From Desulfosporosinus metallidurans (lineage in GTDB: Bacteria > Bacillota > Desulfitobacteriia > Desulfitobacteriales > Desulfitobacteriaceae), in NCBI RefSeq assembly GCF_001936615.1, contig NZ_MLBF01000025.1, forward strand, positions 17,824-49,823: a stretch of 32,000 nucleotides of DNA, given 5' to 3'. Made by a program: the position numbers and the translations under genes. This document shows positions 5,685 through 32,000 of the stretch, one piece after another (within the stretch, counting starts at the first letter, position 1; each line of letters starts with the position of its first letter). The notes beneath the pieces are model-generated. The model had not been told where the DNA came from. It did not search any database and saw nothing but the letters and a program-made list of their open reading frames with translations.

Positions 5685-6836
5685 TCAAAGAGTACTAATA
5701 TCTTTAACTTCCTGAAACAGCATTTCTTCAATAGCGCTTTGTATTTTGTTCTTAATAGTTCGAGCGTTTTCGCCAGTTGCTTGAATAACTAGACTCACTC
5801 TTTTATACACATCAATCGCATTAATCTTCTCATTACACTCTTTAACATGTGATTCTATTTCACTCATAGTAATATCGTAGATGGTTTTTTCAGAGAAATC
5901 TTTAAAATGTATGAATTTATCAATTCGATAAAAAATGGGAAGTCCTAGACGATCTTTCATTTCATTCATATTGTTATAATTCGAGGTCAAAACAATTAAT
6001 AAGCCAAATATATCCAATTCATAAGTTGCATCACTAAAAATCGCATTATCAAATAACGTATAAAAGGCTGAGTAAAAGTATTCGGGACATTTATCAAGTT
6101 CGTCAAGAAAAATAAGATTAGATTCTCTTTCCAAAAGATCAAATCCTAGACTTCTTCGGTTTGGACGATCTCCAAAAAAGTAATGGGAATATGCATCGTT
6201 TTTGAACATGGATAAATGTTTTTCAACAAATTTACCATTAAAGAATTTATCTGCAATTTCACGTACTAATTCTGACTTACCTAAACTACTTCCACCATAA
6301 AGCATAATAACATAAGGTTTCTTCCGGTTTGCAGTTGTTAGATACCACATACTTTTACTAATTTCAACTATAGCTTCGTCTTGTCCAAAAATGTTATGAG
6401 CGATTCTTTTCATGTTGCCCGAGAAGTTTTCGGGCTGTCGATTTATGCTATATTCTTCTTTATCGCGAGACAAATGAATTAATCCACGATAATGTAAACC
6501 TTCAAGATACGCTTCTAAAATTATTGGCGGATTATGAATATAAATGATAGCGTCATCTGTTGTTAATTCTTCAATAAGAGAACCTAATCTATCATGGGCT
6601 GATTCTACAATTCCATGATAATTATCATTCTTCAAAATCATTATAGAAGCTTTATCTTCGTCTAAAAAAGGATAACCTCTTTGCTTCCGTTCATCAGATA
6701 ATCTAACTAGCTCCAAAAAAATTTTAATAACATTCTCTTCATATTCTTCATCTTGTTTTTCTTCAAGCTTTTTGACTTGAGCATCGAAAAAAGCCTTCGA
6801 GCCGATAACTATATGGTATGTTCTTTTATCAACCAT
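5685..6836 (-). CDS. ClpB-like AAA+ (AAA_2-type) ATPase, DolB-like (Dodola)
   Basis: Walker A LYGGSSLGKSELVREIA, Walker B LIFLDELDKC and sensor LLIVLTSNY follow the layout of the ClpB D2 module. I prefer the ATG at 6836 (GGAGG 5 nt upstream) over the listed 6857. It overlaps the upstream gene by 8 nt. Confidence 0.8.
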   Translation of the reverse strand: MVDKRTYHIVIGSKAFFDAQVKKLEEKQDEEYEENVIKIFLELVRLSDERKQRGYPFLDEDKASIMILKNDNYHGIVESAHDRLGSLIEELTTDDAIIYIHNPPIILEAYLEGLHYRGLIHLSRDKEEYSINRQPENFSGNMKRIAHNIFGQDEAIVEISKSMWYLTTANRKKPYVIMLYGGSSLGKSELVREIADKFFNGKFVEKHLSMFKNDAYSHYFFGDRPNRRSLGFDLLERESNLIFLDELDKCPEYFYSAFYTLFDNAIFSDATYELDIFGLLIVLTSNYNNMNEMKDRLGLPIFYRIDKFIHFKDFSEKTIYDITMSEIESHVKECNEKINAIDVYKRVSLVIQATGENARTIKNKIQSAIEEMLFQEVKDISTL

Positions 6837-7623
6837 TTGTGCCTCCTGCCGTAACACAAGCGTAAACTACATCGTATAATTGTATTTTTGGGGGCCTGTT
6901 ATCGTCAGATGTCATTACGCTTCTTGCAGTATCTTCGGCATTAGATTGTCTTGTTGGATACGCTTCAGCAAGTGATTTGTGTTGATTTACACCTGAAAGT
7001 AGGGTTTCCATTTTAAATAGTTGCTTCATGAAGTCAAACTTTTCTTTATCAAACTCTCCGACGGAAATACAATATAATGTCATTTTGGTTGCTAATAAAT
7101 CATTGCGCTTATAGTTGCTGACAAACGCTGAATTATTGAATCGCACATAACGGTGAGAATCTACTTTATATGTATCATAACCGTCGTAACCATCCATTAC
7201 AGCCTTAAACTCACTTGTGTCAACACCTTCAACGCCGCCCTTTACAATACGCAAGTAGCCACCAGCTACCCTAAAAAAAGTCGAAGAATTTTCAATGTCA
7301 TATATTAGGGTATCTTTAATTTCTGTAAGGTGCGTTTTCAATTCTTCAAACTCGGAAATTTCTGTTGAAGTAATAGTTGTTGAACTATCTCTCTTAATCA
7401 TAAACGATGCGTTTATTTTTCCAGAAAATAAAAAAGAAAGCCTGTCCCAAAAAGGCACACTCAAATTGACCTTTGCTTCAACTCCAACTTCTATAGCAAC
7501 TCCAGTTGAGGAAACAAAATCTGTTTGTGTTGTTTTTGACCCCTTGTTTTGTTCTTGCAAAATATTCCTTATTGTCTCTTTATCAAAATAAATTGTTTTA
7601 TTAATACTTTTTATATTGCTCAA
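6829..7623 (-). CDS. Hypothetical beta-rich protein, candidate DolA (DUF6414-like) partner of the ClpB-like ATPase
   Basis: 264-aa ORF with a TTG start 8 nt after GGAGGG, translationally coupled to the ATPase. The family call rests on gene pairing and size only, not on a motif I can name. Confidence 0.6.
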   Translation of the reverse strand: MSNIKSINKTIYFDKETIRNILQEQNKGSKTTQTDFVSSTGVAIEVGVEAKVNLSVPFWDRLSFLFSGKINASFMIKRDSSTTITSTEISEFEELKTHLTEIKDTLIYDIENSSTFFRVAGGYLRIVKGGVEGVDTSEFKAVMDGYDGYDTYKVDSHRYVRFNNSAFVSNYKRNDLLATKMTLYCISVGEFDKEKFDFMKQLFKMETLLSGVNQHKSLAEAYPTRQSNAEDTARSVMTSDDNRPPKIQLYDVVYACVTAGGTNG

Positions 7624-8376: not shown

Positions 8377-8940
8377 TTAACTGAATTTCCCCAATCCCTT
8401 TGTGCTTAGAGAAATCTTTTTTTTGACTTCGTCGATAGCAATTATCTCTGCCGGACAAATTTCTCCGACTTCAAATTCGGCATATATATCTCCAACGTAT
8501 CGATAGGCAATCTCAGAAATGTGTATCAGGCCCTGTATGGATTCATCAATGCCAGCAATGGCACCATAAGGCATGATATGAAGTATTTCTACATTGATGA
8601 TGTCACCAACAAAGTGCCGACCGCTATTGCTCAGAAAACTGTCGATATCCTCGTCAGCATCTTCCGGTTCGGATATGGCTTCAGGCTGAAAAATGTCAAG
8701 CTCACTAATGTCTTTTGCGGGTTGTCGATCTTTTAAGGCTTTTTCAAGCTCATCCTGCCTTCGGTTTACTTGCGATACAAAAGGATCTTTTAACCCAGAG
8801 TTTCTTAACCACGCGCATATTTCCAATCCATATTCAACTTTATCCGATGATTTTTCGTATTTGCTTAAGTTATAACATAATTTTAACGTTTGTACCAAAG
8901 CAACCCTGACATTGTGGAAAAGGGCCGCTTTCCCTTTCAA
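8377..8940 (-). CDS. S1 (OB-fold) nucleic-acid-binding domain protein; possibly a -1-frame extension of the upstream tnsD-like gene
   Basis: The C-terminal ~75 aa, VGDIINVEILHIMPYGAIAGIDESIQGLIHISEIA...KKISLSTK, match the S1 domain pattern. The only start is a TTG with no SD, overlapping the upstream stop (TTGA). Confidence 0.6.
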   Translation of the reverse strand: MKGKAALFHNVRVALVQTLKLCYNLSKYEKSSDKVEYGLEICAWLRNSGLKDPFVSQVNRRQDELEKALKDRQPAKDISELDIFQPEAISEPEDADEDIDSFLSNSGRHFVGDIINVEILHIMPYGAIAGIDESIQGLIHISEIAYRYVGDIYAEFEVGEICPAEIIAIDEVKKKISLSTKGLGKFS

Positions 8941-10058
8941 GAAAGGGGTGCGTTTTTTATGAAGTCGAACAGTTCTTTCCCATATTCATTAAATGTCATG
9001 CGATATTGCTGCTTTCTGAGTTTTTCTTCTTCATATTTCCTATACAGAATATCGAAGTTGATACAGTAACCGGTACCGAGAGCAAAAAAAGTAAGATAAT
9101 CGTTAGATGTTTTTTTATGGCTGCCTTTTGCGAAAAATTCCCTGATTGTATTTACAGCTTTTTCTTTTTCCAGCACCTCTTGAGACCATAACAAATAAAC
9201 ATAGAGAGTATAAATGTCGGAATCGTGAATAAAGAAATGTATATATTCTTCTATGACACTAATTGCAGCAACAGGATTTAGCCTTGAGTTTGATAGGTAA
9301 TCAGATAATCGCTTGAGTGCGCTTTTACGAAGATTGTACGAACACTTAGAGTTATTTAAGACACGACGATATTTCTCGACAGTCTCTTTTTCGTTGCTAA
9401 ACGCACGGCTTTTGTCAGCCTGAGTGAGCATGGCCTCTAATATATCACCCTCAATATCTTTCCCTCCGATGCTATTCAATAAATTTCTGACCGTATCCCG
9501 GAAATCTTGAGGATATTCGTTATATCTGGCCGTCATCATCTGGAGTAACTCTGCCGAGTAAACACGACCATAAACATCGTTGTTTCGTTCGATTACCTTT
9601 TGGTTGATGACTTCGTCAATGCTTGCCTCGAACTGATCTTTTTCCGGTATGACTTTTCCAAGAACATATTCCAATACGTCAAAATTGAACCGCAAATCGT
9701 TGTCTACCAGAATAGATATGGTTGCAAACAGATATTGTGCATTTGGACTTAGATAATTGAATATTCGCCCATATAAAAATTCCCGAGCGTCCTCGCTTGT
9801 TCTTATTCCTTCGATGAGGTCTTTTAAGAAATCCAATATAGAGCGTTTCTTCGCCGATTCGAATGTATAGTTAGCCTTCTGCTCAATCATCTTACGCTGC
9901 CTTGGTTTAACCATTAGTTCCTCGAAAACATGGTCGGGGGTTACGTTATAAAGGTAGCTCTCTAATATTATTGCGGCTACTCGCCAACCAATGGATACAA
10001 CCGTTTTTTGTTCTTGTTTATTTCCTTCGGATTCTGATCCTGTTTGGGAATAAATCAT
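8937..10058 (-). CDS. C-terminal portion of a TnsD-like protein (the listed ATG is internal; the frame is open upstream to 10139)
   Basis: Upstream of the listed Met the same frame reads ...KKTQYFFGEFTCPSCGMIYSQTG. The Met therefore lies inside a CxxC zinc-ribbon motif expected after the GPWSC..YCP motif of the preceding ORF. Confidence 0.7.
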   Translation of the reverse strand: MIYSQTGSESEGNKQEQKTVVSIGWRVAAIILESYLYNVTPDHVFEELMVKPRQRKMIEQKANYTFESAKKRSILDFLKDLIEGIRTSEDAREFLYGRIFNYLSPNAQYLFATISILVDNDLRFNFDVLEYVLGKVIPEKDQFEASIDEVINQKVIERNNDVYGRVYSAELLQMMTARYNEYPQDFRDTVRNLLNSIGGKDIEGDILEAMLTQADKSRAFSNEKETVEKYRRVLNNSKCSYNLRKSALKRLSDYLSNSRLNPVAAISVIEEYIHFFIHDSDIYTLYVYLLWSQEVLEKEKAVNTIREFFAKGSHKKTSNDYLTFFALGTGYCINFDILYRKYEEEKLRKQQYRMTFNEYGKELFDFIKNAPLS

Positions 10059-11158
10059 GCCACAGCTAGGACAAGTAAACTCTCCAAAAAAATATTGAGT
10101 TTTTTTGTTAAAACTACTTTTATACCCTGTATAACAAATCTATTATAGTCAGGGCAGTAAGTATTTTTACACGACCAAGGACCCGCACCGAAAGGTGAGG
10201 TAGTAAATTCACTAGATATAAAACCTTTGACGGATTGGGATAGATACTCCATGCCCAAAATATGTAATAGTTGATTTTTTGGACGCCCATTGAAATTCAG
10301 CACTTTTAAAGCAGTCCTATTTGACAGATAAATGGAATCAAGGCCTACAGTCTGTAACATTTCCTCGCTAAATAAACCTAAAAATCCTTTTGAAAACTTT
10401 GTATTTATGAACATCCCTTGGGATGCCAGGTACCCTTTATGTGAATATAATCTGAGCATTTTTTCTTTAAATATTTCAACGTTTAATTTGTCCACATTGT
10501 CAATAACAAATTTAACATCCCTTGCCAGTTGCTCGTTAAACAATTGAATCTGCGTGGGCGATTCTACTTCTACTCTGCGACCATCTCCTAGATAGTGCCC
10601 ACATGAACAAGTAGGTTCCATCAAAATAAATCGTCCAAAGCTATCTGACAATGGTGCACCACATTTGGGACAATGGGTTACTAGGTTAAAGCGATGAACT
10701 GGGCAAACAGTTACAAAATTGTACTGATGAACCCTATGTATATAACATTCCCTAAATCTTTCAAAGTCTTCTATTAAACAAGTTGGACAATAACGAACAA
10801 GGGTGGAGACTATTGGCGACAACAATCGAGTACCAATCTCCGATCTATCACTTGCACACCTAAATTCTACTAGGATCTTTTCGCGTTCATCGAGTGAAAG
10901 AAACGGAAGAAACAGCGCTAATAACGTGTGATTCGCTATGAAATAATCCGTAGTAAGAAAGAGTTTCTCAGGCAGCCTCTCAGCCAAATAATCTAAATTA
11001 CGAGGGAAATGCGCTAATCTATGGGTCTTAATATTAAAAAGTTCCTCAATTGTTTTTGTAATATTTAAGTTACCCGAACGAATGTGGTAACGATACGTCA
11101 AACTCCTGAAGTCTTCATCTTCATAAGGGGTAGGGAAAAAACCTAGTTCATTTTTCAT
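10055..11158 (-). CDS. tniQ: TniQ/TnsD-family transposition target-selector, N-terminal portion
   Basis: FFPTPYEDEDFRSLTYRYHIRSG, HTLLALFLPFLS..ERE, RYCPTCLIEDFERF and CPVHRFNLV run parallel to the Tn7 TnsD N-terminus as I recall it (FPVPYSNELIYSTIARAG.., EHTLFPLYAPFVGKERRD, RYCPDCV.., CPKHGALV). GPWSCKNTYCPDYN follows later. Confidence 0.85.
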   Translation of the reverse strand: MKNELGFFPTPYEDEDFRSLTYRYHIRSGNLNITKTIEELFNIKTHRLAHFPRNLDYLAERLPEKLFLTTDYFIANHTLLALFLPFLSLDEREKILVEFRCASDRSEIGTRLLSPIVSTLVRYCPTCLIEDFERFRECYIHRVHQYNFVTVCPVHRFNLVTHCPKCGAPLSDSFGRFILMEPTCSCGHYLGDGRRVEVESPTQIQLFNEQLARDVKFVIDNVDKLNVEIFKEKMLRLYSHKGYLASQGMFINTKFSKGFLGLFSEEMLQTVGLDSIYLSNRTALKVLNFNGRPKNQLLHILGMEYLSQSVKGFISSEFTTSPFGAGPWSCKNTYCPDYNRFVIQGIKVVLTKKLNIFLESLLVLAVA

Positions 11159-11340: not shown

Positions 11341-14300
11341 CTAATCAATAAAAAACATTGTTTGAAAGGGAACCTCGTAAACAACCCTCTTCCCTTCCAT
11401 TCGGTATACATAAACACGTTCTCTAATCGTACGATAGTCCTGTTCAATCAAATCCTTAGTTAGCTCATCTTCATTAGTTGTTAAAATGACATATCTACTG
11501 ACTCCCTCAGTATCTTCGCTTATAAAATCAATCAAACCATAGGCATCCATCATCTTTTGATAAAGCCTTCCATGGTGATCCTCATAATCCTTGATGATGC
11601 TTTCATAATCGTTTGGAATTAGACGACTATAGAGCGAATCCTCAGGAACTTGTACCTTAAATTGAGCCACTTTTTTCACGGGTCGTAATTGTATGCTGCG
11701 CTCTCGTTCGATTTCTTCAAGCCTTTCATTGCGACGCTCTTCGAGTTCTTCAACCTGACTGATTGTTTGGTTAATTAAAGCACTATTCCTATGATCGACA
11801 TCCTCCGCTTGATATTTTTGCAAACGCTCGTAAAGTGTTGTCATCTGGGTATCAAAAGAACGTCTTAGGAATTGACTTTTCCGATTCAGTAACTCTTCTC
11901 GACCAAGACGCATCGAGATCAACTGTAGACGCGCTTGTTTAATAACTTCCCCCTTAAATGTTCCATCTTCCAAACCAACTATCTCTGCGCCCCCCATCGT
12001 ATCACTAAACAACCAATAGGGAGACAAACGGATATAGTCACCATTGGCTCGTTTCGCTAGCAAGAGCAAGCTGCGTTCCAATTCTCGGCCTTGACCATTA
12101 ACAAAACTAATTTCATTCAACTCTACAATAAGAGATTCGCTCGCTTTAAACCGTATACTACAGGCCGGAATCGATGTTCGCTGTACATCCTGCTCGGCAT
12201 AGGCTAGGGCGAGCTTATAGAGAGGATGATCGTTTTGCAAAAGCAACAAATCTTTTGACTCTTTATCTTCCTTGACCGTAAACCGATAAGCTCCTTCGTC
12301 GTTAAAAATAATCTTATTTTTTCTTCCGAATTCTCGGACAGATTTTGGGATGCGATCCGTACGAATGATGGACCTATCCGCTGATATATTCAACTTCAGA
12401 CGTGTGGACTGTAATTGTTCTAAGGCAAACTGTCCGTAAACACGTGCAGGCATACTTTCCAGGGATAACTCATTGTATGAACGCCTCACACCGGGGAAAT
12501 CAAAACTTTGATCATCGAGCCGCTCTTCTCGAGCTTGTTCCAGTAGACGTCGATGCTCTTCTGATAAACGTTTTTCCATCTGAGCGATCAGATCATCCAG
12601 ATTTTCACGACCTGAAATGGCCCCTTCCATGAGGCTTGCCAGATCAATTTCCTCTTCTTCCAGAACTTCGCCTATGAAATCATAGACAAGCTCCTGACCT
12701 AGATCCACGCGCATCTGCTCAAGCTTCTCGAGTAAGCATCTCATGACTTCCCCTTCGCGAGTGTTCACCGCTACAAGGTTAAAGACAAAGACTTCATTCC
12801 TTTGACCAATCCGATGAATACGCCCCATTCGTTGTTCAAGTCTGTTTGGATTCCAAGGGACATCATAATTAATCATCTGATTACAAAATTGCAGGTTGAT
12901 TGATTCTCCACCAGCATCGGTTGCTAGCATGATCTGAACATCATTGCGGAACTTTTCAATCTCTTCTCGACGTCGATCCATAGAAAAGTCTCCGATAATT
13001 TTCGCCACCGTTGGTACCCGTTCAAGTAAGCGCTGTTCTAGATAATTCAGGGTATCTTTGGACTCCGAGAAAATGAGAATTTTTTCCCCTTTGGCCAAAA
13101 GGGCCTTTGGTCCAAACAAAGTGGATTCTAGCTCTAAATATTTTCGTTCGACTTCCAGTATCCGGACCCCATTGGCCTTCCGAATTAAACGCGTCAATTC
13201 ATCAATTTCCAACTGCAATTCATGGAGGTCAAGTGCATCAGTTTGACCCTCTGCTGCGCCCTCCAGTTCATCTTGTTCTTCGGCTGTGGCATTTTCATAA
13301 TCCTCGATGGAGAACGCCTGAACTTGCATTAATTCTTTTCCCAATGCCTCTTCGAGCCGTTCTTTCCTTCGTACTAAGGATAAGTAAATCGCCTCAATTG
13401 AAGAGCAAAGCCTGCGTTGCAAGAGCATCATCGCAAATACCGTACTATGATTGTTATTCTTTTTGGCCCGGTTAAAATGTTCACTGACATAAGCCGTGAC
13501 ATCGTTATATAACTCTAATTCATCCTTGGACAAATTAAAGGCTAAGGTTTGGGTGGTCCGTTTAGGAAATAAGGGGGTACCCTCAAAGGTGACCATGGAC
13601 TCCTTCAATCGTCGGATGATAAAGGGATTGCTTTTCTCATATAATGAGTCGCTAGTGTTGAGGTTGGAAAAAAGGTCATGGTCTATGAGGTTCATTAAGT
13701 GGCGAAAGTTCTCCTTATCACCCTTGTGCGGGGTAGCCGTCAACAGCAAACAATGTTCTATATCTCGCAACAGCACTTCCCCTAGCTGATACATCTTGGT
13801 TCGTTGTATTTTCCTCCTTTTTACCCCATGGGTGTAGGCCGCCATCTTATGCGCTTCATCTACAATGATCAGGTCAAACTTAGAACGGATCAGATAGTTC
13901 TTGACATCCTCACGCATTGCCCAGTAAAGGGAGGCCAGACATTTATCGTGTTGATCAAACGGATTCAGCACTCCGGATTCACGCAGTGTTGTGCGAGAAA
14001 TAATCTTGAACTCCTCGCCAAACTTCTCCTTTAACTCTTCTTGCCATTGAGGGAGCACCAGCGGTGGCACAAGAATCAGGATTCGCTCGACACTTTGCCT
14101 GGCCAATAATTCTCGAAGAAGCATCCCCGCCATAATTGTTTTCCCTGCGCCTGGATCATCCGCCAGCAAGAATCTCACTTGTGGGGTTTGCAACATGCGG
14201 CTATATACCGCTTCAATTTGATGGGGCAAGGGGATAATCCGTTGGTTCCCTCGCACCCTTGACTTAGAATAGCGTTCATCCACCTTGAGGACATGGTAGC

Positions 14301-14526
14301 GCAAGTAATGCACAATTCGATCCATGCTAAAAACACTATTAACGTTTTGTTGTAATGGCTCCAAGGACTCAATCTGTTGTAACTCCAAATAGGTTTCATA
14401 ATACTCTCTCGTCTGGCGACCAATGGCTTCTACTAAAAAGAGGGTCTGATCTATGGATTCACATTTCTTGATTTCTACGATCTCCGCCCAGTAGGGGCCT
14501 TGGATGATATCTCCAACTTTAATCAA
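11341..14526 (-). CDS. brxHII: SNF2-family (COG0553-type) helicase, BrxHII-like
   Basis: Motif I LLADDPGAGKT, motif II IIVDEAHKM, motif III LLLTATPHKG and motif VI QRMGRIHRIGQ. TTG start after GGGGGAAGG. Same strand as the BREX core and downstream of it. Confidence 0.8.
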   Translation of the reverse strand: MIKVGDIIQGPYWAEIVEIKKCESIDQTLFLVEAIGRQTREYYETYLELQQIESLEPLQQNVNSVFSMDRIVHYLRYHVLKVDERYSKSRVRGNQRIIPLPHQIEAVYSRMLQTPQVRFLLADDPGAGKTIMAGMLLRELLARQSVERILILVPPLVLPQWQEELKEKFGEEFKIISRTTLRESGVLNPFDQHDKCLASLYWAMREDVKNYLIRSKFDLIIVDEAHKMAAYTHGVKRRKIQRTKMYQLGEVLLRDIEHCLLLTATPHKGDKENFRHLMNLIDHDLFSNLNTSDSLYEKSNPFIIRRLKESMVTFEGTPLFPKRTTQTLAFNLSKDELELYNDVTAYVSEHFNRAKKNNNHSTVFAMMLLQRRLCSSIEAIYLSLVRRKERLEEALGKELMQVQAFSIEDYENATAEEQDELEGAAEGQTDALDLHELQLEIDELTRLIRKANGVRILEVERKYLELESTLFGPKALLAKGEKILIFSESKDTLNYLEQRLLERVPTVAKIIGDFSMDRRREEIEKFRNDVQIMLATDAGGESINLQFCNQMINYDVPWNPNRLEQRMGRIHRIGQRNEVFVFNLVAVNTREGEVMRCLLEKLEQMRVDLGQELVYDFIGEVLEEEEIDLASLMEGAISGRENLDDLIAQMEKRLSEEHRRLLEQAREERLDDQSFDFPGVRRSYNELSLESMPARVYGQFALEQLQSTRLKLNISADRSIIRTDRIPKSVREFGRKNKIIFNDEGAYRFTVKEDKESKDLLLLQNDHPLYKLALAYAEQDVQRTSIPACSIRFKASESLIVELNEISFVNGQGRELERSLLLLAKRANGDYIRLSPYWLFSDTMGGAEIVGLEDGTFKGEVIKQARLQLISMRLGREELLNRKSQFLRRSFDTQMTTLYERLQKYQAEDVDHRNSALINQTISQVEELEERRNERLEEIERERSIQLRPVKKVAQFKVQVPEDSLYSRLIPNDYESIIKDYEDHHGRLYQKMMDAYGLIDFISEDTEGVSRYVILTTNEDELTKDLIEQDYRTIRERVYVYRMEGKRVVYEVPFQTMFFID

Positions 14527-14660: not shown

Positions 14661-15272
14661 TTATGCATTATCTGCCTTCATACTGGCAGTGTAATAGTTA
14701 TGGCGGCGATGGCTTTCAATATTTTTAACAAAAACATTACAATTTAGCCAAGACAATTTCTTTTTAATTTTTTCACGCAAATTGGTCAAAATTGCCTTTT
14801 GAGGCCTTGTGTTTGATGCAAAATCTCCCTCTAAAAACAAAACAACTTTGATTTTGTTTGTTCCCAAAGATATATTATTCGTCATGATAAAATCAGAATA
14901 CTTCTTCAATACCCCACTATGAGTTTGTAATTGTGGCTGAGAATGTGCACCACACAAACATGCCAATGTCATCGCGACTTTTTTAGGAATTTCAATATCG
15001 AGGCTATCTCTGTCCTCAGTATCAACCATTGTGGCGGTTCTATCACGTTTACTGTTGTCCGTTGAAATGCGCCATAGATTTTCACCTTCGTGTCCAGCAC
15101 AATTTTTGACTTCTATTAGCATAAGAGTATCCTCCGATTTCAGAATGAAATCTACTCCCTTGCCGCCTGGCAAATTTTTAAAGTATTTTTTGTAATATCC
15201 AGTATCATCAAATTTATCTACGGTGAGATGATCGTCAAATTCAAAGACGATGCCGCTTTCATCAAACCTCAT
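14661..15272 (-). CDS. PD-(D/E)xK-type nuclease-fold protein (predicted), partner of the upstream ABC-type ATPase
   Basis: GKGVDFIL-(9 aa)-LMLIEVKN gives a D...ExK arrangement. I prefer the ATG at 15272 (AGAGG 7 nt upstream), which gives 203 aa. It overlaps the ATPase stop by 11 nt. Confidence 0.6.
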   Translation of the reverse strand: MRFDESGIVFEFDDHLTVDKFDDTGYYKKYFKNLPGGKGVDFILKSEDTLMLIEVKNCAGHEGENLWRISTDNSKRDRTATMVDTEDRDSLDIEIPKKVAMTLACLCGAHSQPQLQTHSGVLKKYSDFIMTNNISLGTNKIKVVLFLEGDFASNTRPQKAILTNLREKIKKKLSWLNCNVFVKNIESHRRHNYYTASMKADNA

Positions 15273-16332
15273 AGAATAACCTCTGTTCTCTATCATAAAG
15301 ATGATCAAATTCTTGCATAATAGCATTATGTTCTAAATCCAACAATGTAGGACCGGATTCGAAAAGGATATTATCATTTTCCTTATAAAATGAAATGAAT
15401 TTTACATCAATATTTTCTAGCATGGGCTGGTTTGGCTTATACTCAGAAATCATGGAAAAGCACTGCTGTAGGAAGTAATCATGAGTCGCAATAAAAACTT
15501 GAACGCCCATGTTTGCCAGTACTACTAAAGCTTGTACTATTGGTTCTATCATTTTGGGGTTCATATTTGTCTCAGGTTCATCCCAAAAAAGAACTGAGTT
15601 TTTGTTTAAACTTCCGGAGAGGATCAAATATATAATAGTTGATAGCTTACGATATCCTTCGGAAACTAACCCCATTTCAAACTCGCCTTGACCATCTACT
15701 CTAAGGTAAAATTTCTTGCCTTTTTGAATTATCGATCCATTGATTATATTATTAAAGCTCTCCAATACTTTGTTTTGCTCAGCCGTATTGGGTCCCCTCT
15801 TTAAAGGCCTATCAAGTAGAAGAGCCAAATCATAATAAGTTTCTTCAAAAGCAATACGGTATTCGTAGTATAGAGCAGTGAAATTCTCTGTAGCCGAGAT
15901 TATTTCTTTAGGCGGAAGATATATTGGCTCAACAGATTTCACAAATCCTCTTAAGAGTTGATTGATATCCAGATGCTTTTCTTGATTTGAACTAAAACCA
16001 AACTCAAGTTTCGTATTTTCGTTGACTGTTATTGCTATATTAGTGCTTTTGCTTCCCTGAATGCGTCTTACTAAACGTCCAATTTTATCATCATCCGGTC
16101 TAAAAACACCTTGAAGCTTTGAAACTAGAAGCTCTTCATTCTGTTCCTTTGTTAACTCTGACTTAGCTTTGTTGGCATTGCTAATTGACTTAGTTGCCGA
16201 ATACAACAGTTTTAACATGGCCGTCTTACCAGTGCTGTTTTCACCGCTAATAATATTAATATTCTTAGAAAAATCGATATTAAGGGAATTGAAAAGCATG
16301 AAATCATTAAGAACTAATTTGCTAATATACAT
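15262..16332 (-). CDS. ABC-type/AAA_21-like ATPase (the Septu PtuA / PARIS AriA class of ATPase)
   Basis: Walker A ISGENSTGKT, signature-like VSEGYRKLS, Walker B/D-loop VLFWDEPETNMNP and H-loop IATHD. The N-terminus MYISKLVLNDF is typical for this class. I prefer the ATG at 16332 (GAGGTG 6 nt upstream) over 16356. Confidence 0.8.
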   Translation of the reverse strand: MYISKLVLNDFMLFNSLNIDFSKNINIISGENSTGKTAMLKLLYSATKSISNANKAKSELTKEQNEELLVSKLQGVFRPDDDKIGRLVRRIQGSKSTNIAITVNENTKLEFGFSSNQEKHLDINQLLRGFVKSVEPIYLPPKEIISATENFTALYYEYRIAFEETYYDLALLLDRPLKRGPNTAEQNKVLESFNNIINGSIIQKGKKFYLRVDGQGEFEMGLVSEGYRKLSTIIYLILSGSLNKNSVLFWDEPETNMNPKMIEPIVQALVVLANMGVQVFIATHDYFLQQCFSMISEYKPNQPMLENIDVKFISFYKENDNILFESGPTLLDLEHNAIMQEFDHLYDREQRLFYEV

Positions 16333-16441
16333 TTCCCACACCTCTTCCTTATTCATAGATTATTCCCTAATTTTTCAGATTTGATAATGGAGCAAACATC
16401 CTGCATGAATTTCACCTTAACAGCACGCAGATATTACCATT

Positions 16442-27775: not shown

Positions 27776-28291
27776 TTACATTTCGCGTGCAGTCATACCC
27801 GCGCGATGCTGCTCATCTAACGACACATCCGCTAAGACATGTAAATAACGGATTGGGCTATTACCCTGTGAAGTTGTGTGCTCTGACTCGAAGTGAGGAA
27901 TAATACCCACATATGGAACAAGATTCAATGTTTCAGCTGAGCGGATAGTAACAAGAGGTAATGCGCCATCATTCCAATCGTTCATATTCCGAACCATGGT
28001 CGTATAGTCGTTCCAGACTGTTTTCCAGTTGGAAGCCCCACACCAAATCAGTTGAAAGTACAGAAGACAATCCGTTGGATCATACCCGCGCACTTTCAGG
28101 ATATGGGATTTGGTGTATTGACGATTAATACCTTCCAATCGAATAGCTTCACACACTGCTAAACGACGACTATTCTCGGATATGACAACATCAGGCTCGC
28201 CATGTCCTCTCTCACCTTTTCTCTGGACTCCTCCGGTCACGCCTAAATAAGATTGAAATTCCGTATTCCACCCAAGTCCACCGCAAAACAA
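27776..28291 (-). CDS. PD-(D/E)xK-like nuclease-fold ORF, probably the -1-frame C-terminal part of the upstream 964-aa gene
   Basis: GHGEPDVVIS-(9 aa)-AVCEAIRLEG is a D...E.(K/R)-like arrangement. The only start is a TTG with no SD, and there is no internal Met for about 100 codons. It overlaps the 964-aa ORF by 49 nt. Confidence 0.45.
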   Translation of the reverse strand: MFCGGLGWNTEFQSYLGVTGGVQRKGERGHGEPDVVISENSRRLAVCEAIRLEGINRQYTKSHILKVRGYDPTDCLLYFQLIWCGASNWKTVWNDYTTMVRNMNDWNDGALPLVTIRSAETLNLVPYVGIIPHFESEHTTSQGNSPIRYLHVLADVSLDEQHRAGMTAREM

Positions 28292-31137
28292 CTTAGTATA
28301 TGAGAATCCTCATTTGCAATTTGGTCATTACGGATCAAATATGGAGCATATTCTCGCACCTGTTGACACGATTTGAGCACAAGAATCTGAATCAGCCTTT
28401 CATACGTAAAATCCTCCGAACGGAAATAAGCTCGAGCTTTTGCATTAGGATCTGGAAGTGTCGCCAACCGTGCAAGTGCATCAGCGATATCCTGCCACAT
28501 CCACGGGGAATGCGTCACTTCCCCCGGTAACACATCGGAGTTGGTATGTTCTTCAATTTGCATTTGGTACCTTACAAGTTCCGGATTACTCTCGTGCCGA
28601 ACCTGGAATTCTTCTATCAAATGTATCGCTTCTTGCCAATGCTGTTTACGAAACAAGACCTCTAATCGAGTTAGACTCACCGAGAATTGTTGTTGTAATA
28701 GCTCTGGCAAGCTACGGAATGTGGACCAATATTCCTCCCAGTTCTTGAGCACAATGAAAAGATACAGAACGTTAACCGTGGCAAGAATATTATGAGGCGT
28801 AACCGCTTCGGTGACACGACCTATTAATTTAGTTGCAAAGGATTTTGCTTCTAATATACTTTGGCTCTCTATAACTTCAGATTCATCGAACTGGCCAAAA
28901 TACCGTACATAGGCGGCAACCAGGTTAATGAGATAACTATATTCACCGGGATAATGACTGTGTAGATGACGAAAATCATTAATTGCCTGCGTTAACTCGT
29001 GACGCCCGCCCCGTTCGAAATGGACCAACGCCTTATAAAACTGTCTCGTAACCTCGAAATTCTCACGGCTACTGATTCTGTCTGGGGGAAGAGTTTGTTC
29101 GACAGTGTCAAAATTTCTCTCCGCAAACGCGAGGTGAAGACGAATGCGATAAGACCATTCAACCCACCCAGGTATACAACGCTCCCTACCTACTGGCTCA
29201 TAATGATTATAGAGGCTGCTTGCTCTCTCCACAAAGGCAGGTACGCGAGTAGCCAGTAGCTCAGAAATTGTACTTTGCACCTCTGACAGACTATGATGCG
29301 AGGATGACTCGTCGGATGTCACACGCAATAATCGATGCTGTATAGTCTCTCTGTCAATCGGATTAGCCAAATGATTAAAAATCACAGCTAAACGTCTGGC
29401 ATCAGTTGTAGATTCAGCAAAAGCTTCGAGTGTGCGACTTCGTTCATCTGCGGGGAGTCGGTTGATTGCGTCGGTAAGTACCACTAATAAAGGCTCTACA
29501 TCTGTAGGAACACTCTGAAAAGCATTCGCTTCAATCATCCATGAGAAGGCGTCAACGGTGGACTCCTCCAAGAAGTCATCCTGTTGAAATGCTCGGAAAC
29601 ACTGCACCAGGGCATCCGAAACATCACGTAACACTACGGGGTCTGAAATATTGCGCGCCATATAGGCTAGCCAACGTAAGTGGATTCGAATTTTTTGCCT
29701 CCTGACATAAACCGACGACGGATCATCTATAAGTGTTCCGTTAGCAATGGATAGTGTGCTCGCCCATTCGGACACGTGACGATCTCGCATGTATAGCCCA
29801 GCTGCAATCCACCCTTCATGCGCAACGTATGATTCGGTATCTGAAGAGAGGTGTGCCAGTTCAGTTCGAATGACGTTACGATAAGCGGCAAAGAGGTACC
29901 TATAAAGTCTGTCTGAAATAGCAGGATATTCGTATGTAACCTTTGAACATAACCATAGAATAATGTCCCAGTAAGGGGATTCAAGCTTTGACTCAATAGG
30001 ATCTAACGCTAACTTAACCATATCAAAAATGGATGGAAAGACTGCGCTGATAAACGATTCCTGTGTGTTACTGTATCGTTGCATCACTTGTAGTAGTTCG
30101 CAAAAGCTCTGATATTGCATTGTCTGTCTTTGAAGTTGGACTCCAGATCTCGTTACGCGATGTGTGAATGTTCGATGCTGTTTTACGAGCCACCCGATAA
30201 CATCAACAATGAACCTGCTCTCCTCATTAACATCATTCATGCCCTTGAGAATTACTCCGATGAATGCCAGACCTTCGTTCCATAGAATTTCCATTGAATC
30301 GATTGATTCAGATAGAGTGAACTTGGAAAGCAACAATGTGCCGATCAAGGCTGTTTGGGTTCTGGATAAAAGATGAGCGATGAGCTCAGGTATAGACTCT
30401 CTGCACGCCATAGACAGTGCTCGATAAATAAATGGACGCTCTGGCATCCCCTGCATCAATTTCCAAAAACATTCCCGTTTTAAACTATCTCCGGAACCAA
30501 TACCTTCACCAACAAATAGACACAATATCAGAAAATGATAAGAACCCCGTGCATCGTCCACAAACATGGATGGGTCCAATCGAGGATTTTCGTATTGGTA
30601 CAGACGTTCTTCTTCTGAATTCAAATTTGGCAGCCAGGACATGACCTCTTCGTCCAACAAAAGTCGTCCGTTCATTGTCGCTAACTCCGCGCCAAACTTA
30701 CGTTTTTCCCATTCCCAATCCTGTAAATCCCTTTCGTCAAGTATTTGAATAAGGCAAGCATCAAGAAAATTCGATCGGGGAAAGGCAGACATATAATTGA
30801 GGAAGTCGAAGGAAGGTCTCAAAAACTCCGTACGATCATACCACCATGAAAGTCTATCCATTTTTTCTGATGGACCTGCATTGTAATCCTCCCAAAGCTG
30901 AGAGCAAAGGCGTGAAGCGTACATTTGGAGATGTTTAGAGTGGCGATTCAGGGTAAACACCGATCTCCCAGCGATATGAACACTGTCAACAAGTGCGTTA
31001 CGAATGAACCAGTCTTCGTTTGGGGCACTGGGATACCGTAAACGATGGCTATTCAGAATATCTTTGAAACTCGAAATTTCAAATTTGCGTTCATCTGGAT
31101 AGGGAGTATTTTTCATCATCTGTAGAAATCCACGCAT
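28243..31137 (-). CDS. Large (964 aa) predominantly helical protein of unknown function, with a TPR-like C-terminal third
   Basis: Long uninterrupted ORF with no P-loop or other catalytic motif that I can recognise. Helical-repeat character, e.g. FYKALVHFERGGRHELTQAINDFRHLHSHYPGEYSYLINLVAAYV. Confidence 0.7.
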   Translation of the reverse strand: MRGFLQMMKNTPYPDERKFEISSFKDILNSHRLRYPSAPNEDWFIRNALVDSVHIAGRSVFTLNRHSKHLQMYASRLCSQLWEDYNAGPSEKMDRLSWWYDRTEFLRPSFDFLNYMSAFPRSNFLDACLIQILDERDLQDWEWEKRKFGAELATMNGRLLLDEEVMSWLPNLNSEEERLYQYENPRLDPSMFVDDARGSYHFLILCLFVGEGIGSGDSLKRECFWKLMQGMPERPFIYRALSMACRESIPELIAHLLSRTQTALIGTLLLSKFTLSESIDSMEILWNEGLAFIGVILKGMNDVNEESRFIVDVIGWLVKQHRTFTHRVTRSGVQLQRQTMQYQSFCELLQVMQRYSNTQESFISAVFPSIFDMVKLALDPIESKLESPYWDIILWLCSKVTYEYPAISDRLYRYLFAAYRNVIRTELAHLSSDTESYVAHEGWIAAGLYMRDRHVSEWASTLSIANGTLIDDPSSVYVRRQKIRIHLRWLAYMARNISDPVVLRDVSDALVQCFRAFQQDDFLEESTVDAFSWMIEANAFQSVPTDVEPLLVVLTDAINRLPADERSRTLEAFAESTTDARRLAVIFNHLANPIDRETIQHRLLRVTSDESSSHHSLSEVQSTISELLATRVPAFVERASSLYNHYEPVGRERCIPGWVEWSYRIRLHLAFAERNFDTVEQTLPPDRISSRENFEVTRQFYKALVHFERGGRHELTQAINDFRHLHSHYPGEYSYLINLVAAYVRYFGQFDESEVIESQSILEAKSFATKLIGRVTEAVTPHNILATVNVLYLFIVLKNWEEYWSTFRSLPELLQQQFSVSLTRLEVLFRKQHWQEAIHLIEEFQVRHESNPELVRYQMQIEEHTNSDVLPGEVTHSPWMWQDIADALARLATLPDPNAKARAYFRSEDFTYERLIQILVLKSCQQVREYAPYLIRNDQIANEDSHILSCFAVDLGGIRNFNLI

Positions 31138-31535
31138 AGAGTCGTTCCCTTAAAATTCCCTATGAGGAGACAGCGTAAGTGGTGAGGAAAGTACCACTGA
31201 TTCCAAACAATCCGGATCAAGCCGTCTCGAACCATTTCATCAAAATTGATATTAGCACCGTCGTACTTGGCATTGTACACCTGCAATGCGTCCACAAAAT
31301 TTTGAGCAGAACGAGGATCTGGAGAAGGGTTTAGCTTTTGGAGAAATGTTAAAAGTAATACATCCAAGCCCCAACCGACTATCTCAGATCCATCTAATTC
31401 ATCGAAGAGGTTGGCGCTATGCATCGGCTGTGAATATCTTCTGAGCCGCACGGCAAACTCGCCGACCGCCTGGTTGCGGGAGAGTGAGATGTGTTGAATT
31501 TTATGTTCCAAATCGTAGCGATTCAAGAGTTCCAC
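31116..31535 (-). CDS. Hypothetical protein (139 aa), possibly the remnant of a longer decayed gene
   Basis: GTG start, and the stop overlaps the next gene. An in-frame TAA lies only 6 codons upstream of the GTG, with protein-like sequence before it. Confidence 0.4.
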   Translation of the reverse strand: MELLNRYDLEHKIQHISLSRNQAVGEFAVRLRRYSQPMHSANLFDELDGSEIVGWGLDVLLLTFLQKLNPSPDPRSAQNFVDALQVYNAKYDGANINFDEMVRDGLIRIVWNQWYFPHHLRCLLIGNFKGTTLCVDFYR

Positions 31536-32000
31536 CCCATTCCAATCTACTTACAGCCCAAATTTTATATAATCTGGAGGGAGATTCACTAAATCCATCA
31601 ATACCGTCCTATCACCGGCCGCAGGGAAAGGCGATGGTGAGATCAACTATCCATAATTATATAACACAAGTAGAACTGTGTGATCCAGCTATTTCCGGTA
31701 GACATGCTATTTCACATAATTGGGGCACGGCAAAGAAAGCAGCTTACGGCTGTTTGAAGCCTGTTACAACAAACCGATTTCGAAGAGCCTACCGTCATCT
31801 CGGGTACAGCATCGTGCTCACCGAGCACATTCTGGCACAAGTCACCCATACGCCGGAGGGTAGCTTTCGTGCATATCTTCCTATAGCATTATAATTATGA
31901 CAATTACTCTATTATGTGTCCCCCATCTAATTTGAACAACGTCTGTAATATTCCCTTAATCTCTGCTTGCACCAATATCTACTCCCGAGCCATTTGAAAA

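What the first reader, a model, noticed from the sequence alone, without database searches (positions are those of the whole stretch)
27776..31535. Uncharacterised cluster upstream of BREX: a 964-aa helical/TPR-like protein whose PD-(D/E)xK nuclease module lies in the -1 frame
The 964-aa ORF has no motif I can name. The following ORF carries GEPDVVIS...AVCEAIRLEG (restriction-endonuclease-like) but has only a TTG start, no SD, and overlaps the 964-aa ORF by 49 nt. Within the overlap, one extra T in the T4 run (plus coordinates 28285-28288) would fuse them: ...IANEDSHILSCFCGGLGWNTEFQSYLGVTGG...GEPD... The NED acidic residue would then sit where the first catalytic helix of such nucleases usually is. 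The result would be a ~1120-aa protein with a large helical sensor-like region plus a C-terminal nuclease. That architecture is typical of single-gene defence proteins, and it sits next to BREX, but I cannot match it to a named system. It may be inactivated in this strain.
Basis: partly seen in the sequence, partly recalled or inferred. Interest (0 to 1): 0.65.

Follow-up and report, generated by a model that had tools for sequence, protein, structure and literature searches.

The report
Broken gene for candidate phage-defence protein
The three neighbouring open reading frames between a CBASS and a BREX system are the pieces of one ~1250-residue gene, broken by two frameshifts and a stop codon, from a rare unnamed protein family that looks like a single-protein phage-defence sensor with a nuclease (or in one relative a SIR2) killing domain.

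Summary
A 964-aa ORF (28243-31137, -) is followed by a 171-aa ORF in the -1 frame (27776-28291, TTG start, 49-nt overlap).

The upstream 139-aa ORF (31116-31535) belongs to the same ancestral gene. Intact homologues are single ORFs of about 1200-1360 aa that cover all three pieces. Three edits to the window give a 1253-aa protein that aligns end to end with a 1255-aa homologue (E 3e-121).

The downstream break is not a one-T slip. Against the closest homologue, which reads straight through, the window is a net 19 nt shorter and lacks 6 residues of the first helix of the C-terminal domain. The window copy is therefore most likely a pseudogene. A second relative (90% nt identity) carries six more frameshifts.

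The family has about 164 clusters among 1.84 billion proteins and no Pfam, NCBIfam or PADLOC match. AlphaFold models (pLDDT 88-90) show an N-terminal alpha/beta region, an ~800-residue alpha-solenoid without an NTPase, and a C-terminal alpha-beta-beta-beta-alpha-beta domain with invariant D, E and H and a >=90% conserved K. That domain resembles restriction endonucleases only weakly. One member carries SIR2 instead. Neighbours are often defence genes. The family is a plausible new defence family; this copy is dead.

The parts
31177..31535 (-). Fragment 1, in-frame part. It is the N-terminal ~120 residues of the ancestral protein (first part of the N-terminal alpha/beta region; motifs WGLDVLLL...DPRS...GLIRIVWNQWYFPHH).
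   Evidence: It is homologous to residues ~46-110 of the intact homologues P0003, P0004 and P0006. After repair it joins one HSP with P0003.
31116..31176 (-). Break 1 region. A 1-nt deletion lies at 31176/31177 (CACTT[T]A). After it the 139-aa ORF runs out of frame (LRCLLIGNFKGTTLCVDFYR*) to its TGA at 31116-31118. In the ancestral frame, TAA at 31150-31152 replaces TCA. The ATG of the 964-aa ORF is at 31135-31137.
   Evidence: L003 (90% nt identity) reads through in one frame: WYLPHHFILSHHREFSGNASMLGFLQMM.
28294..31137 (-). Fragment 2. It holds the rest of the N-terminal region and the whole alpha-solenoid (TPR/HEAT-like), ending in 'IANEDSHIL', the start of the first helix of the C-terminal domain.
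   Evidence: It is 62% identical to P0002 and aligns with positions ~131-1060 of the intact homologues. The AF2 model of homologue P0015 is all-alpha from 189 to 993. Foldseek finds only solenoid proteins.
28243..28309 (-). Break 2. This is the stretch where the reading frame must change (-1). The window is a net 19 nt shorter than L001 (a 6-nt in-frame loss plus a 13-nt loss). The tail CFAVDLGGIRNFNLI* of the 964-aa ORF is out-of-frame sequence.
   Evidence: DNA alignment with L001. Protein alignment shows a 6-residue gap and divergent junction residues. There is no slippery heptamer and no homopolymer of 5 or more.
27776..28291 (-). Fragment 3. It is the C-terminal restriction-endonuclease-like domain without most of its first helix. 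The family-conserved D (GEPD), E (CEA), H..K (HILK), Y and H are retained.
   Evidence: It is about 70% identical to the C-terminus of P0002. The AF2 model of the P0002 domain has pLDDT 89.5 and an alpha-beta-beta-beta-alpha-beta order.

Best explanation
The 139-, 964- and 171-aa ORFs are the remains of one ~1253-aa gene that has been inactivated in this strain.

The lesions are: (i) a 1-nt deletion at 31176/31177, together with a TAA at 31150-31152 in the original frame; and (ii) a net 19-nt loss at about 28250-28300 that shifts the frame by -1 and shortens the first helix of the C-terminal domain.

The intact family is a single polypeptide with three parts:
- an N-terminal ~185-residue alpha/beta region (two winged-helix-like modules, inferred from secondary structure only);
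- an ~800-residue alpha-solenoid with no NTPase;
- a C-terminal effector domain.

In nearly all members the effector has a restriction-endonuclease-like alpha-beta-beta-beta-alpha-beta core. It has invariant D, E and H, a >=90% conserved K, and a conserved E on the first helix. In one member the effector is SIR2.

By analogy with DSR2 and with the sensor arms of Avs proteins, I infer that the solenoid binds a phage component and thereby releases the effector (DNA cleavage, or NAD+ depletion in the SIR2 variant), stopping infection. This mechanism is not shown.

In the window the gene is most likely non-functional. It sits as a decaying cargo gene between CBASS and BREX.
For: One gene:
- P0002 (62% identity) is one ORF across break 2.
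- Deep HMMER search found 164 proteins. The best full-length ones (1225-1277 aa) match query positions 3-1095 at their positions ~131-1250.
- Their first ~130 residues match the 139-aa ORF.
- The window sequence with three edits gives 1253 aa and aligns with P0003 over q55-1240/s46-1249 at E 3e-121.

Lesions:
- Net -19 nt at break 2.
- L003 is in frame across break 1.
- Other large genes in the window are intact (PglX 1172 aa, BrxC 1190 aa, helicase 1061 aa), so the breaks are not general assembly noise.
- The Logan contig is identical.
- There is no frameshifting signal.
- L003 has six further 1-nt indels.

Architecture:
- AF2 of P0015 has pLDDT 87.9. AF2 of the C-terminal domain has pLDDT 89.5 and pTM 0.87.
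- Invariant D124, E138, H153 and Y160, with E78 and K156 at >=90%.
- BFVD matches to Mrr and PD-(D/E)XK proteins have probability 0.96-0.97.

Effector swap: P0044 has SIR2_2 at E 3.5e-23.

Defence context:
- Window: CBASS upstream; BREX, HEC-02 and Dodola downstream.
- P0032 is next to Gabija and Mrr_cat.
- P0071 is next to a NACHT-HEAT protein and Fic.
- P0041 is next to DUF4238.
- P0004 is next to a DUF4365-TPR protein.
Against: - Each of the three pieces is still a clean ORF with no further stops. dN/dS against L001 is 0.19-0.25. Inactivation is therefore recent, or the pieces might still be used.
- The 964-aa ORF has an AAGGGA about 9 nt before its ATG and could be translated.
- The nuclease fold is not confirmed at significance. 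Foldseek against PDB has a best E of 0.13. BFVD gives none at <= 0.001. Profile searches against PDB sequences and Pfam found nothing.
- The canonical Lys of (D/E)xK is absent.
- No family member has been tested against phage.
- Only 9 neighbourhoods were seen, and 3 of them were uninformative.
- Only three sequences of the window's own subfamily exist, so the direction of the indels rests on reading-frame continuity in the homologues.
Confidence: 0.78

Rival explanations
1. The gene is functional as a split gene. The three pieces are made separately, or by programmed -1 frameshifting at both junctions, and assemble into an active complex.
For: - Both breaks need the same -1 shift.
- All three ORFs are otherwise open.
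- The 964-aa ORF has an SD-like AAGGGA and an ATG.
- dN/dS is well below 1.
Against: - There is no X XXY YYZ heptamer and no homopolymer of 5 or more at either junction.
- The frame of the 171-aa piece offers only a TTG with no SD.
- No homologue shares the split. P0002 and all distant homologues are single ORFs.
- Break 2 removes 6 residues of a conserved helix. It separates the conserved E from the D/E/H..K residues.
- The ancestral frame carries a TAA.
Confidence: 0.08
2. The frameshifts are sequencing or assembly errors, and the real gene is intact.
For: Single-base indels are common errors. The T4 run and the CACTT(T) site are short homopolymers.
Against: - Break 2 is a net 19-nt difference with diverged flanks, not a 1-nt error.
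- There is also a substitution stop, TAA.
- Six other ORFs of 843-1190 aa in the window are intact.
- A Logan assembly of SRR22746114 is identical over 3861 nt, though it may come from the same reads.
Confidence: 0.05
3. The family is not a defence protein. It is a mobile-element or DNA-maintenance protein (for example for transposon or integrative-element housekeeping) that rides in variable islands.
For: - P0003 sits beside three tyrosine recombinases.
- The window carries TniQ/TnsD and a group II intron.
- P0071 is next to an IS66 transposase.
- The N-terminal region may bind DNA.
Against: - Replacement of the nuclease-like domain by SIR2 on the same scaffold is typical of immune effectors, not of housekeeping.
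- The immediate neighbours are known defence genes in several unrelated contexts.
- No consistent partner recombinase or transposase was seen.
Confidence: 0.12

Closest known systems
DSR2 (defence-associated sirtuin 2) and DSR1
   Same: It is a single large polypeptide that joins a long alpha-solenoid to an enzymatic effector without an NTPase. One family member (P0044) carries a SIR2 domain. In DSR2 the solenoid C-terminal domain binds a phage tail tube protein and activates SIR2 (PMC11850899, abstract seen).
   Different: - The domain order is reversed: here the effector is C-terminal.
- The usual effector here is restriction-endonuclease-like, not SIR2.
- There is an extra N-terminal alpha/beta region.
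- There is no sequence match (PADLOC), and DSR2 is not among the top 50 Foldseek PDB matches.
Avs / STAND-type (NLR-like) defence proteins
   Same: Both have a modular sensor-effector logic with swappable effectors (nuclease, SIR2) and a TPR-like sensor arm. One homologue sits next to a NACHT protein.
   Different: There is no P-loop NTPase. Residues 189-993 of the model are all-alpha with no strands, and there are no NTPase Pfam hits. The effector is at the C-terminus, not the N-terminus.
PD-(D/E)xK (restriction-endonuclease-like) superfamily, for example Mrr, BamHI/OkrAI, AF1548
   Same: - The secondary-structure order is alpha-beta-beta-beta-alpha-beta.
- An invariant D lies just before strand 2, an invariant E lies in strand 3, and a conserved E lies on helix 1.
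- The weak structural matches are mainly such proteins.
   Different: - The residue two positions after the E is hydrophobic, not Lys. A conserved H..K sits on the next helix instead.
- No match reaches E <= 0.001.
- There is no Pfam nuclease family hit in 24 domains.
BREX accessory genes (BrxR, BrxU, BrxHII and others)
   Same: It lies directly upstream of brxA on the same strand.
   Different: None of the nine homologue neighbourhoods examined contains BREX. There is no PADLOC BREX model hit. The adjacency looks like defence-island clustering, not membership.

Membership tests
PD-(D/E)xK nuclease superfamily | Core alpha-beta-beta-beta-alpha-beta fold | tested here: met
   AF2 model of the P0002 C-terminal domain (pLDDT 89.5): H78-96, E99-102, E125-129, E132-142, H147-159, E167-174. 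The same order appears in P0015. This is based on secondary-structure order only; coordinates were not inspected.
PD-(D/E)xK nuclease superfamily | Conserved acidic residue at the start of strand 2, and (D/E)xK in strand 3 | tested here: inconclusive
   D124 and E138 are invariant in 59 sequences. The residue at E+2 is L/I/F, not K. K156 on the following helix is >=90% conserved and may substitute for it. That is inference.
PD-(D/E)xK nuclease superfamily | Significant structural or profile similarity to a known member | tested here: inconclusive
   - PDB Foldseek best E is 0.13; restriction-endonuclease-fold hits 1y88, 3odh and 3bam have E 0.5-1.6.
- BFVD: 'Restriction endonuclease' at 3.9e-3, an Mrr-domain protein at 6.7e-3 (probability 0.96), and a PD-(D/E)XK nuclease at 1.9e-2 (probability 0.97, TMt 0.51).
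- HMM against PDB sequences and Pfam found nothing.
PD-(D/E)xK nuclease superfamily | Metal-dependent nuclease activity | not testable with these tools
   This needs purified protein from an intact homologue.
BREX system component | Conserved co-occurrence with brxA/B/C, pglX and pglZ | tested here: not met
   Homologue neighbourhoods lack BREX genes. No PADLOC BREX model matches.
STAND/Avs NLR-like defence | Central P-loop NTPase (NACHT/NB-ARC/AAA) | tested here: not met
   No NTPase Pfam hit in 12 full-length members. The model is all-alpha between 189 and 993.
DSR2-like sirtuin defence | N-terminal SIR2 domain plus a C-terminal solenoid homologous to DSR2 | tested here: not met
   SIR2 is present in only one member, and there it is C-terminal. 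There are no PADLOC DSR hits and no DSR2 structure among the top Foldseek matches.
Programmed -1 ribosomal frameshift gene | Slippery heptamer in phase, and a frameshift conserved in homologues | tested here: not met
   No heptamer and no homopolymer of 5 or more at either junction. Homologues are single ORFs.
Pseudogene | Frame-disrupting lesions relative to intact homologues that remove conserved residues | tested here: met
   - 1-nt deletion plus TAA at break 1.
- Net 19-nt loss at break 2 that removes 6 residues, including the conserved Y.

The most novel reading that the evidence does not exclude
The intact relatives of this broken gene form a previously uncatalogued, NTPase-free, single-polypeptide anti-phage family. 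It has an N-terminal DNA- or protein-binding region, an ~800-residue alpha-solenoid sensor, and an exchangeable C-terminal effector. That effector is a divergent restriction-endonuclease-like domain lacking the canonical Lys, a SIR2 domain, or a third unassigned domain. The system would act by sensing a phage component directly and releasing the effector.
Probability: 0.4. Interest if true: 0.6.

Novelty: new variant of a known kind. Interest (0 to 1): 0.45.

Why it matters
For this genome, three "hypothetical proteins" should be annotated as one pseudogene. They should not be counted as a working defence gene or as BREX accessories.

More broadly, the broken gene points to a rare protein family (about 164 clusters at 50% identity among 1.84 billion proteins). 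The family has no Pfam, NCBIfam or PADLOC model. It shows the hallmarks of an immune sensor-effector: a large solenoid, an exchangeable nuclease-like or SIR2 end, and defence-island neighbours.

Intact members (P0003, P0004, P0006, P0044) are ready candidates for phage-challenge experiments. The family would add an NTPase-free design, beside DSR2, to the known single-protein defences.

The finding also shows defence genes decaying inside an otherwise intact island.

Tried and rejected
- Pfam, NCBIfam, PADLOC and PHROGs on the window ORFs, the conceptual fusion and seven intact homologues gave no meaningful hit.
- The word-index protein search with the fusion found only the window's own protein and P0002.
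- Profiles against PDB sequences (A2 and the C-terminal A7) gave only chance hits: cysteine dioxygenase and FAF1.
- Pfam on 24 isolated C-terminal domains at E <= 10 gave no recurrent family.
- Foldseek of the C-terminal model against PDB gave nothing significant.
- Foldseek of the full model gave only generic solenoids.
- Two genome-contig scans and one metagenome-contig scan for the window's subfamily found no relatives. Two attempts failed for lack of a conserved stretch. The source organism therefore stays unidentified.
- A plasmid DNA search found no match.
- Programmed frameshifting was considered and rejected.
- The single-T repair was considered and found arithmetically valid, but it is not the historical lesion.
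- BREX membership was rejected from the homologue contexts.
- One literature search found no paper describing this architecture.
Full report
**1. The observation**

On the minus strand the window holds three consecutive ORFs:
- 31116-31535, 139 aa, GTG start;
- 28243-31137, 964 aa, ATG start;
- 27776-28291, 171 aa, TTG start.

BrxA, BrxB and BrxC follow directly (Pfam). The 171-aa ORF is in the -1 frame relative to the 964-aa ORF and overlaps it by 49 nt. Its frame is open for only 6 codons upstream of the TTG. The description is therefore correct.

A Logan assembly of run SRR22746114 (L002) is 100% identical to window 28140-32000, T4 run included. It may derive from the same sample, so it is weak independent support.

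**2. The two ORFs are one gene, but the lesion is not a one-base slip**

A word-index search with the conceptual fusion found only the window's own protein and one relative, P0002 (855 aa, 62% identity). P0002 lies on a 2.9-kb JGI contig (L001) whose end cuts the gene's N-terminus. It reads as one uninterrupted ORF from the helical region through the junction to the end of the C-terminal domain.

At the junction P0002 reads ...IASEDTYSHLLYLILQARLNILGWSVDFQ.... The repaired window would read ...IANEDSH------ILSCFCGGLGWNTEFQ.... The DNA alignment shows the window is a net 19 nt shorter there. This can be read as a 6-nt in-frame loss (the TY codons) plus a 13-nt loss. The frame change is real. 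The historical event was a deletion that also removed part of a conserved helix.

**3. The upstream 139-aa ORF belongs to the same gene**

I searched 1.84 billion representative proteins with a profile of the window pieces plus P0002. This found 164 proteins at E <= 1e-3 and 16 at E <= 1e-30. The best full-length hits (P0003 1255 aa, P0004 1277 aa, P0006 1262 aa, P0010 1229 aa, and others) match query positions 3-1095 at their own positions ~131-1250. They are single ORFs that span both parts and carry about 130 extra N-terminal residues.

Those residues are homologous to the 139-aa ORF:
- P0003: WGLDILLLRLIQ...DPRS...GWVRVVWDRWYLPQEFIYS...FMQLLSQVPYPDERK
- window 139-aa ORF: WGLDVLLLTFLQ...DPRS...GLIRIVWNQWYFPHH
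- window 964-aa ORF start: FLQMMKNTPYPDERK

A third relative, L003 (ENA contig, 90% nt identity to window 30399-31468), reads through this first junction in one frame: WYLPHHFILSHHREFSGNASMLGFLQMM. Relative to L003 the window has lost one T at 31176/31177. In the original frame it also carries TAA (31150-31152) where L003 has TCA.

Three edits (+T at 31176/7, TAA to TCA, +T at the T4 run) give a 1253-aa protein. It aligns with P0003 in a single HSP, q55-1240/s46-1249, E 3e-121, and similarly with P0004, P0006 and P0010.

**4. Pseudogene or functional split?**

Neither junction has an in-phase slippery heptamer or a homopolymer of 5 or more. The third piece has only a TTG without a Shine-Dalgarno sequence. 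No homologue shares either split.

Break 2 leaves the >=90% conserved Glu of the first helix (motif EDxY) on one fragment and the invariant D and E and the H..K residues on the other. It also deletes the conserved Tyr and shortens the helix by six residues.

Other long genes in the window are intact. This argues against general indel noise.

L003 has six additional 1-nt indels in 1077 nt relative to the window's open frames. A second lineage of this small subfamily is therefore decaying as well.

dN/dS is 0.19-0.25 against L001 and 0.27-0.43 against L003. This fits long purifying selection followed by recent loss.

I put about 0.78 on a pseudogene, 0.08 on a functional split, and 0.05 on an assembly artefact.

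**5. What the intact protein is**

None of Pfam, NCBIfam, PADLOC or PHROGs recognises the window pieces or seven intact homologues, apart from a lone TPR repeat in P0013.

AlphaFold2 with a 62-sequence alignment models the intact homologue P0015 (1177 aa) at pLDDT 87.9 and pTM 0.71:
- Residues 1-185 are mixed alpha/beta, with two helix-helix-hairpin modules. I read these as winged-helix-like. That is inference from secondary structure only.
- Residues 189-993 are purely helical.
- Residues 1006-1177 form an alpha-beta-beta-beta-alpha-beta domain.

Foldseek against PDB returns only generic solenoids (IFT-A, Ctr9, CAND1, karyopherins, TTC7B) at TM <= 0.25. There are no strands in the middle 800 residues, so there is no P-loop NTPase.

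**6. The C-terminal domain**

In a 59-sequence alignment D124, E138, H153 and Y160 (P0002 C-terminal numbering) are invariant. E78, G107, G121, K156, Y186 and H241 are >=90% conserved.

The domain model (pLDDT 89.5, pTM 0.87) places these residues as follows:
- E78 at the start of helix 78-96;
- D124 just before strand 125-129;
- E138 inside strand 132-142;
- H153 and K156 on helix 147-159.

This is the arrangement of a restriction-endonuclease-like active site, except that the residue two positions after E138 is hydrophobic rather than Lys.

Structural searches give only weak support:
- PDB has no hit at E <= 0.001. AF1548, OkrAI, BamHI, Can2 and VC1899 appear among noise at E 0.5-1.6.
- BFVD top hits include a phage 'Restriction endonuclease' (3.9e-3), an Mrr-domain protein (6.7e-3, probability 0.96, TMt 0.40), and a PD-(D/E)XK nuclease of HGTV-1 (1.9e-2, probability 0.97, TMt 0.51).
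- Profile searches of the isolated domain against PDB sequences and Pfam found nothing.

I regard the nuclease fold as probable, not established. The window's 171-aa piece retains all the conserved residues downstream of the break.

**7. Evidence for a defence role**

(a) Effector exchange. P0044 (1391 aa) shares the N-terminal and solenoid parts but ends in a SIR2_2 domain (PF13289, E 3.5e-23). P0071 ends in a different domain with no Pfam hit. By eye it has Toprim-like EGxxD...DxD motifs.

(b) Neighbourhoods.
- In the window the gene lies between a CBASS operon (SMODS cyclase, E2, patatin on L002) and BREX. Within and beyond BREX lie a HEC-02 pair, a DrmD-like helicase and Dodola DolA/DolB.
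- P0032 is followed by Gabija (GajA/GajB) and an Mrr_cat gene.
- P0071 lies beside a NACHT-HEAT protein and Fic.
- P0041 lies beside DUF4238.
- P0004 lies beside a DUF4365-TPR protein.
- P0003 lies in an element with three tyrosine recombinases and a PIN_12 gene.
- Three other contexts were too short or uninformative.
- None contains BREX, so this is not a BREX component.

The sample is small, and I did not compute an enrichment statistic.

**8. Likely mechanism (inferred)**

The protein is a single-chain sensor-effector. The solenoid, possibly with the N-terminal region, recognises a phage molecule. The C-terminal nuclease-like or SIR2 domain is then released and either destroys DNA or depletes NAD+.

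The closest working analogy is DSR2, whose alpha-solenoid binds the phage tail tube protein to activate SIR2 (PMC11850899, abstract). The domain order is reversed, however, and there is no detectable homology.

**9. Novelty and score**

The window copy is an ordinary thing: a recently broken gene. The family behind it is rare, unnamed in the libraries available here, and has a coherent defence-like design.

I could not check the newest defence catalogues or AFDB. One literature search found no description.

I rate the finding as a new variant of a known kind (a single-protein sensor-effector defence candidate) with interest 0.45. Its details needed correction: one missing T, about 1120 aa, and a separate upstream gene.

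Noticed in passing
window 5685-7623 (-): Two overlapping ORFs (390 aa AAA ATPase; 264 aa DUF6414) match PADLOC DolB (E 5e-97) and DolA (E 1e-50). This is a Dodola system in the same island.
   Followed up: partly
window 14661-16356 (-): A DUF6661 protein (221 aa) and an AAA_21/AAA_15 ATPase (364 aa) match PADLOC HEC-02B and HEC-02A (E 2e-85 and 3e-112). The pair sits between PglZ and the SNF2 helicase, so a candidate system is embedded inside the BREX operon.
   Followed up: partly
window 11341-14526 (-): The 1061-aa SNF2 helicase at the end of the BREX cluster matches the DISARM DrmD model over its full length (E 0, 1169 bits). This is much better than its match to the BrxHI/BrxHII models (E 1e-103).
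   Followed up: no
window 8377-11158 (-): A TniQ/TnsD-like protein (367 aa) is followed by a 373-aa ORF with no family hit and a 187-aa S1-domain protein. These may be remnants of a Tn7-like element that carries the island.
   Followed up: no
window 386-1816 (-): A group II intron reverse transcriptase/maturase (RVT_1 + GIIM).
   Followed up: no
L002 992-3508 (sequence just beyond window position 32000): A CBASS operon (SMODS/DncV-like cyclase, E2-CBASS, patatin effector) lies immediately upstream of the broken gene.
   Followed up: no
L003 1-1077 (ENA ERZ27248644 k119_47784): A 90%-identical copy of the N-terminal part of the gene has six extra single-base insertions relative to the window's open frames. 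It is a more decayed pseudogene in another sample.
   Followed up: partly
P0071 C-terminus (about residues 930-1239), loci L014/L015: This family member has a third type of C-terminal domain with no Pfam hit. By eye it shows Toprim-like motifs (ITEGKTDW ... FDRD). It lies next to a NACHT-HEAT protein, Fic and an IS66 transposase.
   Followed up: partly
L013 14078-16111: In a sequenced genome (GCA_025628885.1), a 677-aa gene with no Pfam hit directly follows the homologue P0032 on the same strand, with a 21-nt gap, ahead of Gabija. It may be a partner gene in that subfamily.
   Followed up: no
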